Assembly (NCBI RefSeq): GCF_003334385.1
Contig: NZ_QOWN01000008.1
Origin: Escherichia coli
Lineage (GTDB): Bacteria; Pseudomonadota; Gammaproteobacteria; Enterobacterales; Enterobacteriaceae
Length of the DNA stretch: 64,000 nucleotides
Strand: one strand, 5' to 3'
Shown: positions 6,001 to 9,000 of the stretch, piece by piece
How the letters are laid out: the number at the start of each line of letters is the position of its first letter
Numbering within the stretch: position 1 is the stretch's first letter
Program-made: the position numbers

Positions 6001-9000
6001 TTAGACGTATTATTTTTCATTAAAAATGCTTAAGTATGCATTTCAATGCACCACGATAGTGCAACAAACCTGGCGTGCACCATGATGATCATTCCATCAG
6101 GTACAGCTTCCCAGCGACGTATCAGTCACCGTAGACATTAAAGTCGAAATACTTTTTCGCCATCTTGTCGTAGGTGCCGTCCTGACGCAGCTCGCCAAGC
6201 GCCTTATTGAAGGCAGCCGTCAGTTCAGCATCATCTTTACGTAGCCCTACACCGGTGCCATCACCGAAGTATTTTTTGTCTTTTACTGATGAGCCAGCAA
6301 AGGCGAAATCTTTACCAGCAGGTTGCTTGAGGAATCCTTCGCTGGCAGCAACTTCATCTTGTAACGCAGCATCCAGACGTCCTGCAGCCAGATCGGAATA
6401 GACCAAATCCTGGTTGGCATAGGCCACCACATCCACGCCTTTACTACGCCAGGTCTCGTTAGCGTAAGCTTCCTGGGTTGATCCCTGCAGCACACCAACA
6501 TGTTTACCTTTCAGTGAATCCAGCGTTGGCTGAATCGGTGAACCTTTGGCCGCAATCAAACGAGAATCTGCGGCGTACAGCTTGTCGGAGAAGGCAATCT
6601 CCTGCTGACGTTTATCGGTAATGGAAAGCGACGAAATAATAGCGTCGATTTTTTTCGCTTTCAGTGAGGGGATCAGCGCGTCAAAGTCACTGGCAACCCA
6701 GGTACATTTCACCTGCATCCGTTTGCACATCTCGTTACCGAGATCGATATCAAAGCCAACAAAATCACCTTTAGCATCTTTCGATGAGAACGGTGCGTAG
6801 GTGGTATCGGTTCCGATACGTACCGTCTCCGGTAGCGCCGCATAGCTGGAAGCCGCTGTGGAGAGACCGACTAACAAAGACAGAGCGAGAATCGACTTCT
6901 TCATACATAACCCTCAAGTGAAAATGGCTTTTTTATGTTGTGTATTGTGTTGTGTGTTTGCAGGCTCTTTCATGCAGGTCTTATGCCATCTTGACGACAA
7001 CAGTAACATTCAACGTTAAATATGTTAATAAGACGTTGCATTATTGTCCTGAAGTTGAAGATAGCAGGTATAGCGGTTGAATCGCAGCGTTTCGATTGAA
7101 TGGCAGAAACAAAATGTCGAGGATTTGATCGCGGTTGCAAAATTGCCCTGAAACAGGGCAACAGCGGAGTTATGCGCCCTGCCAGCGGGCAAAGAGATCT
7201 TCAGGAAGGGTTATCGCAAACTGGTCAAGAACACGATTAACCGTCTGATTTATCACATCATCAAGGGATTGCGGGCGATGATAAAACGCCGGAACGGGAG
7301 GCATAATCACCGCACCGATTTCTGCCGCCTGAGTCATTAAACGCAGATGGCCTAAGTGCAATGGTGTTTCACGCACGCAGAGCACCAACGGGCGACGCTC
7401 TTTCAGCACCACATCTGCCGCACGGGTCAGTAAGCCATCAGTATAGCTATGGACAATGCCGGAAAGGGTTTTGATTGAACAGGGTAAAATCACCATCCCC
7501 AGCGTCTGGAAAGAACCGGAAGAGATGCTGGCGGCAATATCGCGCGCATCGTGCGTGACATCGGCTAATGCCTGCACTTCGCGCAGAGAAAAATCCGTTT
7601 CGAGGGATAAGGTCTGGCGCGCTGCCTGGCTCATCACCAGATGCGTTTCGATATCTGTGACATCGCGCAGAACCTGTAATAAGCGCACGCCATAAATCGC
7701 GCCGCTGGCACCGCTGATGCCTACAATGAGTCGTTTCATAAATAGTTGCCCTGTCAGACTTGCAGGCAGACTTTGCAGGATTTCGGCGGGAGTTGCAAGT
7801 CAGGGTGCCAGACCGGCACCCTCAGCGAAGGCATCATCCTTCGTTATGCATTTCGAGATTTTCCACTTCGTTCTGACGTTGCACTGCTTTGGCGTCATCA
7901 TTACGTAACGTATCGAGGAAATCGAGGTAGCCCTGATCAACATCTTTGGTGACGTAGACGCCGTTGAACACCGAGCATTCAAACTGCTGGATATCCGGAT
8001 TTTCAGCGCGAACGGCGTCGATCAGATCGTTCAGATCCTGGAAAATCAACCCGTCAGCACCGATGATCTGGCGAATTTCATCAACTTCGCGACCGTGAGC
8101 GATCAGTTCCGTGGCGCTCGGCATATCAATACCATAAACGTTCGGGAAGCGAATTTCCGGTGCCGCAGAAGCGAGGTACACTTTCTTCGCTCCGGCTTCG
8201 CGTGCCATCTCGATAATCTGCTCAGAAGTGGTGCCACGGACGATGGAGTCGTCGACCAGCAGGACGTTTTTATCGCGGAACTCGGCGCGGTTGGCATTCA
8301 GTTTACGGCGCACGGACTTACGACGCAGCTGCTGGCCCGGCATGATAAAGGTGCGGCCAACATAGCGGTTTTTAACGAAGCCCTGGCGGTACGGTTTGCC
8401 CAGAATACGAGCAATTTCCAGCGCGATATCACACGAGGTTTCTGGGATCGGGATCACCACGTCGATATCCAGATCTTCCCATTCGCGGGCAATTTTCTCG
8501 CCCAGTTTCGTGCCCATATTCACACGCGCGCTGTAAACGGAAATTTTGTCGATAAACGAGTCCGGGCGGGCAAAGTATACATACTCAAACAGGCACGGAT
8601 TGCTGACCGGATTGTCAGCACATTGACGGGTAAACAACTGCCCTTCTTCAGTGATGTAAATCGCTTCGCCCGGCGCGACGTCACGCAGGAAATCAAAGCC
8701 CAGCGTATCGAGCGCTACGCTTTCGGAAGCGACCATATATTCTGTACGGTTCTCGTCAATATCACGTTTTCCCAGTACCAGCGGACGAATCCCGTTTGGA
8801 TCGCGGAAAGCAACCATACCGTGGCCGATAATCATCGCCACACAGGCATACGCGCCGCGGATTAAGCGGTTTGTGGCAGCAATGGCAGCGAAAATATTGT
8901 CGGCTTCCAGCGGGTAGTGGCGGAAGTTGTCCAGCTCGCTGGCGAAGATATTAAGCAGAATTTCCGAGTCGGAAGTGGTGTTGATGTGGCGGCGTTTTTC

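What the first reader, a model, noticed from the sequence alone, without database searches (positions are those of the whole stretch)
6047..6084. NtrC-like palindrome between argT and hisJ
TGCACCACGATAGTGCA plus a nearby TGGCGTGCACCA half-site resemble NtrC enhancer sites, but they lie downstream of argT and upstream of hisJ. This suggests the hisJ promoter may also receive NtrC input, or that the sites act at a distance. I did not find a convincing sigma54 -24/-12 pair for hisJ itself.
Basis: inference. Interest (0 to 1): 0.3.

Follow-up and report, generated by a model that had tools for sequence, protein, structure and literature searches.

The report
Known NtrC enhancer upstream of hisJ
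The palindrome is a real, already documented binding site for the nitrogen-starvation activator NtrC in the E. coli argT-hisJ spacer, so the finding is correct but ordinary; the only open point is which promoter it feeds.

Summary
The window is E. coli. All the genes are on the minus strand, in the order ubiX, argT, hisJQMP. TGCACCACGATAGTGCA (6047-6063) is present as described and is the only match in 64 kb within one mismatch of the NtrC box TGCACC-N5-GGTGCA. A TGCACC half-site lies 29 bp away.

Once coordinates are mapped, the published NtrC ChIP-seq peak "hisJQMP" (Brown 2014, 23.7-fold) falls at window 6032-6112. Its centre is the midpoint of the two sites.

In 78 Enterobacteriaceae species, NtrC-like boxes are about 250 times denser in this spacer than in the flanking coding sequence. 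They sit in helically phased slots upstream of an invariant TGGCAC.

It is canonical (GC at -12) in 57 of 75 species, reads GT in Escherichia, and overlaps the known sigma70 hisJ promoter.

Against direct use in E. coli, sigma54 ChIP-seq and gSELEX report only argTp, and the Salmonella equivalent has been called inactive. argTp has no NtrC box of its own in Escherichia, Salmonella or Citrobacter, so the site may instead feed argTp 926 bp away.

Verdict: already known, low interest.

The parts
6047..6063 (.). High-affinity NtrC box. Reads TGCACCACGATAGTGCA on the plus strand and TGCACTATCGTGGTGCA on the hisJ strand.
   Evidence: One mismatch to TGCACC-N5-GGTGCA and unique in the window. Lies inside the NtrC ChIP-seq peak, window 6032-6112. 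The ..TGGTGCA half is nearly invariant in a 22-species alignment.
6076..6092 (.). Weak second NtrC site. Only the TGCACC half (6076-6081) matches; its centre is 29 bp from the strong box.
   Evidence: Four mismatches as a 17-mer. GGTGCA is at least 80% conserved in the family alignment but degraded in E. albertii. The ChIP peak centre (6072) is the midpoint of the two sites.
6076..6105 (-). Imperfect RNA hairpin just after the argT stop codon. It contains the half-site and has no U-tract.
   Evidence: Fold: z = -0.75 against shuffles, so not significant. Not called as a terminator. In other genera the equivalent arms are TGCACCA...TGGTGCA.
6004..6042 (-). Probable ArgR operator: two 18-bp ARG boxes (6025-6042 and 6004-6021) separated by 3 bp. 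It starts 4 bp from the NtrC box.
   Evidence: ARG-box scan. Core TGCATACTTAAGCA is highly conserved. The placement matches the published statement that ArgR binds 17 bp upstream of the hisJ -35 (PMC6640053). The exact box borders are inferred.
5981..5986 (-). Sigma70 -35 element TTGCCT of the hisJ promoter (inferred).
   Evidence: TTGC is invariant in 22 species. It lies exactly 17 bp downstream of the ARG boxes, as the literature states.
5950..5966 (-). Sigma54-type -24/-12 element ATGGCACGATAAGTGTA (GG...GT). It overlaps a possible extended -10, TGnCACGAT, of the sigma70 promoter.
   Evidence: PWM score 12.7 bits, 5th of about 128,000 positions in the window. TGGCA is invariant in 75 species, with GC at the exact -12 position in 57 of 75. 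No sigma54 ChIP-seq or gSELEX peak is reported here.
2849..5901 (-). hisJQMP operon: hisJ 5119-5901, hisQ 4343-5029, hisM 3630-4346, hisP 2849-3622.
   Evidence: ORFs and RefSeq annotation.
6122..6904 (-). argT, encoding the lysine/arginine/ornithine-binding protein.
6973..6989 (-). argTp sigma54 promoter ATGGCATAAGACCTGCA, 926 bp upstream of the palindrome in the direction of transcription.
   Evidence: Sigma54 ChIP-seq site OS22, RpoN gSELEX peak, and identical in most genera. No NtrC-like box within 300 bp upstream in Escherichia, Salmonella or Citrobacter.

Best explanation
The palindrome at 6047-6063, helped by the adjacent half-site, is the enhancer (upstream activating sequence) where phosphorylated NtrC binds under nitrogen limitation to induce the argT-hisJQMP amino-acid scavenging genes. 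This much is shown: NtrC occupies this spot in vivo in nitrogen-starved E. coli, and hisJQMP belongs to the NtrC-dependent expression set. The rest is inferred. NtrC bound at about -116 (strong box) and -145 (half-site) from a predicted start near window 5939 would oligomerise, loop over the ArgR operator, and use ATP hydrolysis to open sigma54-RNA polymerase at TGGCACGATAAGTGTA (5950-5965, minus strand). That element overlaps the constitutive, ArgR-modulated sigma70 hisJ promoter. This is the ancestral enterobacterial arrangement. In Escherichia the -12 has drifted from GC to GT, and a 22-bp deletion (two helical turns) moved the enhancer closer to the promoter. The hisJ-proximal sigma54 promoter is therefore probably weak, and the same enhancer may also serve argTp.
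For: Identity and location: the box has one mismatch to the consensus and is unique in the window. The locus is argT-hisJQMP of E. coli.

In vivo binding: NtrC ChIP-seq peak 12, labelled 'hisJQMP', is 23.7-fold at 2424941-2425021. The offset of 2,418,909 is fixed by hisJ and argT coordinates in PMC4551910 supplementary data and by the argT sigma54 motif centre 2425890. This puts the peak at window 6032-6112, with its centre 6072 at the midpoint of the two sites.

Conservation: in 78 species, boxes with at most 2 mismatches occur at 5.02 per kb in this spacer, against 0.02 per kb in the flanking CDS. 71 of 78 species have one. The boxes fall into slots 88-90, 109-111 and 139-141 bp upstream of TGGCAC.

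Sigma54 element: TGGCA is invariant, GC sits at the exact -12 position in 57 of 75 species, and Buttiauxella keeps both half-elements with a different spacer. The E. coli version scores 12.7 bits, above 11 of 42 ChIP-verified sites including glnA. pspA and pspG also have GT at -12.

Geometry: predicted positions -116 and -145 resemble glnAp2 at -108 and -140 (established knowledge).

Shimada 2021 reports that NtrC-dependent RpoN promoters tend to have a poorly conserved -12 GC.
Against: No sigma54 peak is reported upstream of hisJ. This holds for E. coli ChIP-seq (only argT, OS22), for RpoN gSELEX with or without NtrC, and for the sigma54-binding entries of the Salmonella study retrieved here, which give argT but not hisJ.

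Samuels 2013 states that the Salmonella hisJ sequence TGGCACGATAGTCGCATC was predicted as a sigma54 promoter but that there is evidence it is not active, citing Ames & Nikaido 1985.

At 12 other NtrC targets the ChIP peak sits on the sigma54 motif (mean -22 bp, range -48 to +11). The hisJ peak sits 114 bp upstream of the hisJ motif.

Conservation of TGGCAC could partly reflect an extended -10 (TGnCACGAT) of the sigma70 promoter.

NtrC gSELEX does not list this spacer above its cut-off.
Confidence: 0.55

Rival explanations
1. Remote downstream enhancer for argTp. NtrC bound in the argT-hisJ spacer loops back 926 bp to the validated sigma54 promoter argTp. hisJQMP is then nitrogen-induced mainly by read-through across the weak hairpin after argT, and the hisJ-proximal -24/-12 is a decayed relic in E. 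coli.
For: argTp is bound by sigma54. It has no NtrC-like box within 300 bp upstream in Escherichia, Salmonella or Citrobacter; the best candidates have 3-4 mismatches, and most are the ubiX terminator palindrome TGCCCTGTTTCAGGGCA. The weak NtrC ChIP signal at argT (5.4-fold, added by eye) sits on the -24/-12 itself rather than on an upstream site, while the strong signal (23.7-fold) is at the spacer. No intrinsic terminator is predicted between argT and hisJ. Several authors treat argT-hisJQMP as one operon. The Salmonella hisJ sigma54 element has been reported inactive. NtrC is known to activate from kilobase distances and from downstream positions (established knowledge: Reitzer & Magasanik 1986).
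Against: Genera that do have an NtrC box about 285-293 bp upstream of the argT start codon (Enterobacter, Buttiauxella, Klebsiella) still keep the spacer boxes. The boxes keep fixed, helically phased distances to the hisJ-proximal TGGCAC, not to argTp. In one RNA-seq data set hisJ is 3-5 times more abundant than argT, so hisJ has its own promoter activity.
Confidence: 0.3
2. NtrC acts through the sigma70 hisJ promoter by interfering with ArgR. In E. coli the box lies 4 bp from ARG box 1, so NtrC occupancy could displace or re-shape the ArgR hexamer and relieve its weak repression, with no sigma54 involved.
For: The NtrC box (6047-6063) abuts the inferred ArgR operator at 6004-6042, and a further ARG-like 18-mer at 6035-6052 overlaps it. 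ArgR repression at hisJ is weak and does not work by simple steric exclusion of RNA polymerase; ArgR-induced changes in DNA conformation are thought likely. No sigma54 signal is seen at hisJ.
Against: The tight juxtaposition exists only in Escherichia, because of the 22-bp deletion. Other genera have 22-26 bp between box and operator yet conserve the boxes. NtrC is not known to activate sigma70 promoters (established knowledge). The family-wide -12 GC conservation points to sigma54.
Confidence: 0.08
3. The inverted repeats are RNA-level signals. They would form the 3'-end hairpin or terminator of the argT mRNA, and the resemblance to an NtrC box would be incidental.
For: A 12-bp hairpin forms right after the argT stop and contains the half-site. 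In Leclercia, Enterobacter and Kosakonia the distal TGCACCA...TGGTGCA arms form long hairpins.
Against: The fold is no better than shuffles (z = -0.75). There is no U-tract and no terminator call, and no Rfam match. The strong 17-bp palindrome would give only a 5-bp stem. NtrC is cross-linked here in vivo. In the variants recovered across species, most of the differences lie in the N5 spacer and the half-site letters change less, which is the pattern of a protein-binding site.
Confidence: 0.04

Closest known systems
glnAp2 enhancer of E. coli and Salmonella (two strong NtrC sites at -140 and -108 driving a sigma54 promoter)
   Same: Same 17-bp dyad. Two sites are about three helical turns apart (29 bp here, 32 bp there), at about -116 and -145 from a -24/-12 element. 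There is also an overlapping or nearby sigma70 promoter.
   Different: Here only one site is strong. The -12 reads GT rather than GC. Sigma54 occupancy has not been detected. An ArgR operator fills the space between enhancer and promoter.
Salmonella Typhimurium argTr/dhuA nitrogen-regulated region (Ames & Nikaido 1985, EMBO J 4:539; the paper that defined the NtrC consensus)
   Same: Orthologous locus. The Salmonella subspecies in my set carry TGCACCATTTTGGTGCA (0 mismatches) or TGCACTTTTTTGGTGCA at the same place, with TGGCACGATAGCCGCA upstream of hisJ. The S. Typhimurium hisJ element TGGCACGATAGTCGCATC is listed by Samuels 2013.
   Different: E. coli lacks 22 bp between the box and the ARG boxes, and its -12 reads GTGTA rather than CGCA. 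I could not read the 1985 paper because it is not held. That its footprinted site is this one is my inference.
astCADBE promoter (NtrC sites, then ArgR sites, then a sigma54 promoter)
   Same: Same order of elements: NtrC enhancer, ArgR operator, -24/-12. Both serve arginine-related nitrogen scavenging and both carry an NtrC ChIP peak.
   Different: At astC, sigma54 binding is verified (OS17) and ArgR acts as a co-activator (established knowledge). At hisJ, ArgR is a weak repressor of a sigma70 promoter.
Overlapping sigma54/sigma70 promoters (argT, glmY/glmZ, and others)
   Same: The hisJ TGGCAC overlaps the sigma70 -10 region. In the Schaefer 2015 RNA-seq, hisJ reads 109, 651 and 703 RPKM with wild-type sigma54, sigma54 lacking region I, and no sigma54. 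That parallels argT at 127, 598 and 550.
   Different: For hisJ, the derepression without sigma54 could be read-through from argT or an indirect effect. No sigma54 peak has been mapped at hisJ.

Membership tests
NtrC (GlnG) enhancer / upstream activating sequence | 17-bp dyad matching TGCACCAnnnTGGTGCA | tested here: met
   13 of 14 specified positions match. One mismatch to TGCACC-N5-GGTGCA, and the only such site in 64 kb.
NtrC (GlnG) enhancer / upstream activating sequence | NtrC occupancy in vivo under nitrogen limitation | tested here: met
   This rests on published ChIP-seq, not my own experiment. Peak 12 is 23.7-fold. It maps to window 6032-6112 using an offset verified by three anchors.
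NtrC (GlnG) enhancer / upstream activating sequence | Two or more phased sites that allow oligomerisation | tested here: inconclusive
   E. coli has one strong box plus one half-site 29 bp away. Other genera have 2-3 good boxes in slots 21 and 30 bp apart.
NtrC (GlnG) enhancer / upstream activating sequence | A sigma54 promoter within reach that depends on the site | tested here: inconclusive
   There are two candidates. The hisJ-proximal element is 90 bp away and scores 12.7 bits, but has no reported sigma54 ChIP or gSELEX signal. argTp is 926 bp away and is a verified sigma54 site. Dependence on the box cannot be tested with these tools.
NtrC (GlnG) enhancer / upstream activating sequence | NtrC-dependent expression of the adjacent genes | not testable with these tools
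   Brown 2014 Table 1 cites gene-expression analysis (its reference 2) for hisJQMP and argT. I believe that reference is Zimmer 2000, but the Zimmer paper is not held.
Sigma54 (-24/-12) promoter, for the hisJ-proximal element | GG at -24 and GC at -12, with 10 bp between the two dinucleotides | tested here: not met
   In E. coli the element is GG...GT (TGGCACGATAAGTGTA). GT also occurs in the verified pspA, pspG and ygeW sites. GC is present in 57 of 75 related species.
Sigma54 (-24/-12) promoter, for the hisJ-proximal element | Sigma54 holoenzyme binding | tested here: not met
   Judged from the literature only. It is absent from the intergenic sigma54 ChIP-seq table, and a search of the paper for these coordinates and of its held supplements found nothing. 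It is also absent from the RpoN gSELEX lists. The Salmonella homologue is footnoted as not active.

The most novel reading that the evidence does not exclude
In Escherichia, Salmonella and Citrobacter, the argT sigma54 promoter has no enhancer of its own. It would be activated by the NtrC sites lying 0.93 kb downstream, beyond the argT coding sequence. One conserved enhancer would then serve two promoters in opposite directions along the DNA: a strong remote one (argTp) and a decaying proximal one (hisJ). This would be a natural case of a bacterial enhancer acting from downstream across a whole transcribed gene.
Probability: 0.3. Interest if true: 0.4.

Novelty: already known. Interest (0 to 1): 0.15.

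Why it matters
The finding adds little. NtrC control of argT-hisJQMP is textbook Ntr-regulon biology, and NtrC binding in this spacer is in the published ChIP-seq table. The remaining value is a loose end the genome-wide papers leave open. The strongest NtrC signal of the locus sits downstream of argT, while the only verified sigma54 promoter sits upstream of argT and has no NtrC box of its own in the E. coli clade. Resolving which promoter the enhancer drives would clarify how this scavenging cluster is wired. It might also provide a natural example of long-range, downstream enhancer action in bacteria.

Tried and rejected
- **Older papers.** I tried to read the primary older literature: Zimmer 2000, Reitzer & Schneider 2001, Barrios 1999 and Ames & Nikaido 1985. 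None is held. A full-text search for 'dhuA' returned only unrelated papers.
- **RNA element.** No Rfam match at E <= 1 in 5000-7300. The spacer RNA folds no better than shuffles.
- **Terminator.** The only terminator-like call on the hisJ strand is a weak 5-bp stem at 5994-6007 inside the promoter region. Nothing is called right after argT.
- **IHF.** No WATCAANNNNTTR match within one mismatch in the spacer, so an IHF-assisted loop as at glnHp2 is not supported.
- **Sigma70 promoter scan.** The generic scan did not find the hisJ promoter. I placed the -35 from the literature's 17-bp rule instead.
- **NtrC gSELEX.** The spacer is not in the list. I give this little weight, because only 7 of the 93 gSELEX peaks are known NtrC targets.
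- **Second sigma54 motif under the ChIP peak.** I looked at 6085-6121 on the minus strand and found none; nothing there appears in the top PWM list.

Full report
**Locus.** A 1.4-kb stretch around the finding is 100% identical to many E. coli genomes, including K-12 MG1655. All genes are on the minus strand: cvpA-purF-ubiX (7170-9876), argT (6122-6904), hisJ (5119-5901), hisQ, hisM and hisP (2849-5029).

**Observation.** TGCACCACGATAGTGCA is at 6047-6063 and TGGCGTGCACCA at 6071-6082.
- The 17-mer is the only site in the window within one mismatch of TGCACC-N5-GGTGCA. Chance expectation is 0.14 per window, and 12 of 100 shuffles produced one.
- It fits the fuller consensus TGCACCAnnnTGGTGCA (quoted in PMC8743547) at 13 of 14 positions.
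- The neighbour is only a half-site, with 4 mismatches as a 17-mer.
- The motif alone is therefore suggestive rather than compelling. Context decides the matter.

**Published binding data.** Brown et al. 2014 (PMC4066584) list 21 NtrC ChIP-seq peaks in nitrogen-starved E. coli.
- Peak 12, labelled 'hisJQMP', is at 2424941-2425021 with 23.7-fold enrichment.
- Peak 13, labelled 'argT', is at 2425861-2425941 with 5.4-fold enrichment and was added by eye.
- I fixed the coordinate offset (window position + 2,418,909) from two sources. One is the hisJ and argT coordinates in the supplementary tables of PMC4551910. The other is the argT sigma54 motif centre 2425890 in Bonocora et al. 2015.
- Peak 12 then becomes window 6032-6112. 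Its centre, 6072, is the midpoint between the strong box (centre 6055) and the half-site 17-mer (centre 6084).

**Comparative evidence.** I fetched the argT-hisJ region from 80 GTDB species representatives of Enterobacteriaceae. argT-hisJ synteny holds in every locus that extends far enough.
- NtrC-like boxes with at most 2 mismatches occur at 5.02 per kb in the argT-hisJ spacer, 1.28 per kb in the 300 bp upstream of argT, and 0.02 per kb in the two coding sequences. 71 of 78 species have one in the spacer.
- The boxes fall into discrete slots 88-90, 109-111 and 139-141 bp upstream of a conserved TGGCAC. The slots are two and three helical turns apart.
- Escherichia has a 22-bp deletion between the box and the ARG boxes. 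This moved its strong box from the 110 slot to the 90 slot, on the same helical face.

**The missed -24/-12 element.** On the hisJ strand, 64 bp before the ATG, lies TGGCACGATAAGTGTA (5950-5965).
- In 75 species TGGCA is invariant.
- G at -13 is present in 67 species and C at -12 in 64. GC sits at the exact position in 57, while the bases further downstream vary freely.
- Citrobacter has the canonical TGGCACGATAACTGCA. Buttiauxella keeps both half-elements with a different spacer (TTGGCATGAAACATGCA).
- A PWM built from the 42 intergenic sigma54 ChIP-seq sites of Bonocora et al. gives 18.9 bits for Citrobacter, 12.9 for the Salmonella subspecies and 12.7 for E. coli.
- The E. coli score is 5th of about 128,000 positions in the window. 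It is above 11 of the 42 verified sites in leave-one-out scoring, including glnA at 11.4 and hydN at 8.0.
- GT at -12 also occurs in pspA, pspG and ygeW.
- With a predicted start near 5939, the NtrC sites lie at about -116 and -145, much like glnAp2 (-108 and -140; established knowledge).
- The ancestral design is therefore a standard NtrC/sigma54 promoter for hisJQMP.

**Other elements in the spacer.** Between the enhancer and this element lie two ARG-box-like 18-mers (6025-6042 and 6004-6021, 3 bp apart) and an invariant TTGCCT (5981-5986).
- The 17-bp gap between them matches the published description of the sigma70 hisJ promoter, where ArgR binds 17 bp upstream of the -35 and represses weakly (PMC6640053, citing Caldara 2007).
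- A -10 spaced 18 bp from TTGCCT would be CACGAT preceded by TG. The sigma70 -10 and the sigma54 -24 therefore overlap.
- This means TGGCAC conservation alone cannot separate the two promoters. The -12 GC conservation can.

**Evidence against a working sigma54 promoter at hisJ in E. coli.**
- Sigma54 ChIP-seq lists argTp (OS22, ATGGCATAAGACCTGCA) but nothing near hisJ.
- RpoN gSELEX with or without NtrC likewise reports only the ubiX-argT spacer.
- Samuels et al. 2013 used the S. Typhimurium hisJ sequence TGGCACGATAGTCGCATC in their PSSM. [quoted passage not shown]
- At 12 other NtrC targets the Brown peak centre coincides with the sigma54 motif (mean 22 bp downstream, range -48 to +11). The hisJ peak lies 114 bp upstream of the hisJ motif.

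**The main rival.** argTp is a verified sigma54 site, yet in Escherichia, Salmonella and Citrobacter there is no NtrC-like box within 300 bp upstream of argT.
- The best candidates there have 3-4 mismatches, and most are the ubiX terminator palindrome TGCCCTGTTTCAGGGCA.
- The weak NtrC signal at argT sits on the -24/-12 itself.
- No terminator is predicted between argT and hisJ.
- The spacer enhancer may therefore activate argTp from 926 bp downstream, with hisJQMP induced by read-through.
- Against this, genera that do have a box about 285-293 bp upstream of the argT start codon still keep the spacer boxes. The boxes are also phased relative to the hisJ element.
- I put the proximal model (possibly with dual use) at about 0.55 and the purely remote model at about 0.3.

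**Side data.** In the RNA-seq tables of Schaefer et al. 2015, hisJ reads 109, 651 and 703 RPKM with wild-type sigma54, sigma54 lacking region I, and no sigma54. argT reads 127, 598 and 550 under the same conditions. This fits sigma54 holoenzyme hindering sigma70 transcription at one or both promoters. Read-through and indirect effects are not excluded.

**Other readings rejected.** There is no Rfam family, no significant RNA structure and no IHF site.

**Verdict.** The feature is already known: an NtrC site of the Ntr regulon, listed in a published ChIP-seq table, at the orthologue of the locus where the NtrC consensus was first defined. Interest is low. The one point worth an experiment is which promoter the enhancer drives.

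Noticed in passing
window 45423-45497 and flanks (44500-47500): tRNA-Arg(CCT) argW is followed directly by dsdC and dsdX, so the 10.2-kb CPS-53/KpLE1 prophage of K-12 is absent. 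The window is therefore not MG1655, even though the argT-hisJ region is identical to it. Only 909 of 5426 complete E. coli genomes share this arrangement over at least 80% of the query. The coordinate offset to NC_000913.2 changes by 10,214 bp beyond this point.
   Followed up: partly
window 55270-55286 (+): This is the best sigma54 PWM hit in the window: CTGGCATACATTATGCA, 18.0 bits, inside the 1197-aa ORF 53273-56866 (evgS). It is the published intragenic sigma54 ChIP-seq site IS29.
   Followed up: partly
literature coordinates; window 6952-7032 for argT: In the Brown 2014 table, NtrC ChIP-seq peak centres at 12 known targets coincide with the sigma54 -24/-12 motif (mean 22 bp downstream). 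They do not coincide with the enhancers expected about 100-140 bp upstream. The offset follows gene orientation, so it is not a mapping shift. I have no explanation; promoter cross-linking through the loop is one possibility.
   Followed up: partly
window 6043-6046, compared with L006-L023: Escherichia species, including E. albertii, lack about 22 bp (two helical turns) between the NtrC box and ARG box 1. Other genera have these bases, often with a third NtrC-like box in them.
   Followed up: partly
L051, L052, L055, L059 (Cedecea-like), argT-hisJ spacers: These spacers are shorter (163-193 bp). They have a canonical GC-rich terminator hairpin after argT, no ARG boxes and no TGGCAC element. 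They still keep one NtrC-like box about 82-109 bp before the hisJ ATG.
   Followed up: no
window ~5075-5100 (-), hisJ-hisQ spacer: On the minus strand there is a hairpin with a 10-bp stem, CTCCCTTCGG-GTAA-CCGGAGGGAG, without a T-run. It may be an intercistronic mRNA-stabilising element. I saw it by eye and did not test it.
   Followed up: no
window ~10163 (cvpA-dedD spacer): Shimada 2021 reports an RpoN gSELEX peak at 2429072 (31-32%) upstream of cvpA-purF-ubiX. I did not look for a -24/-12 motif there.
   Followed up: no
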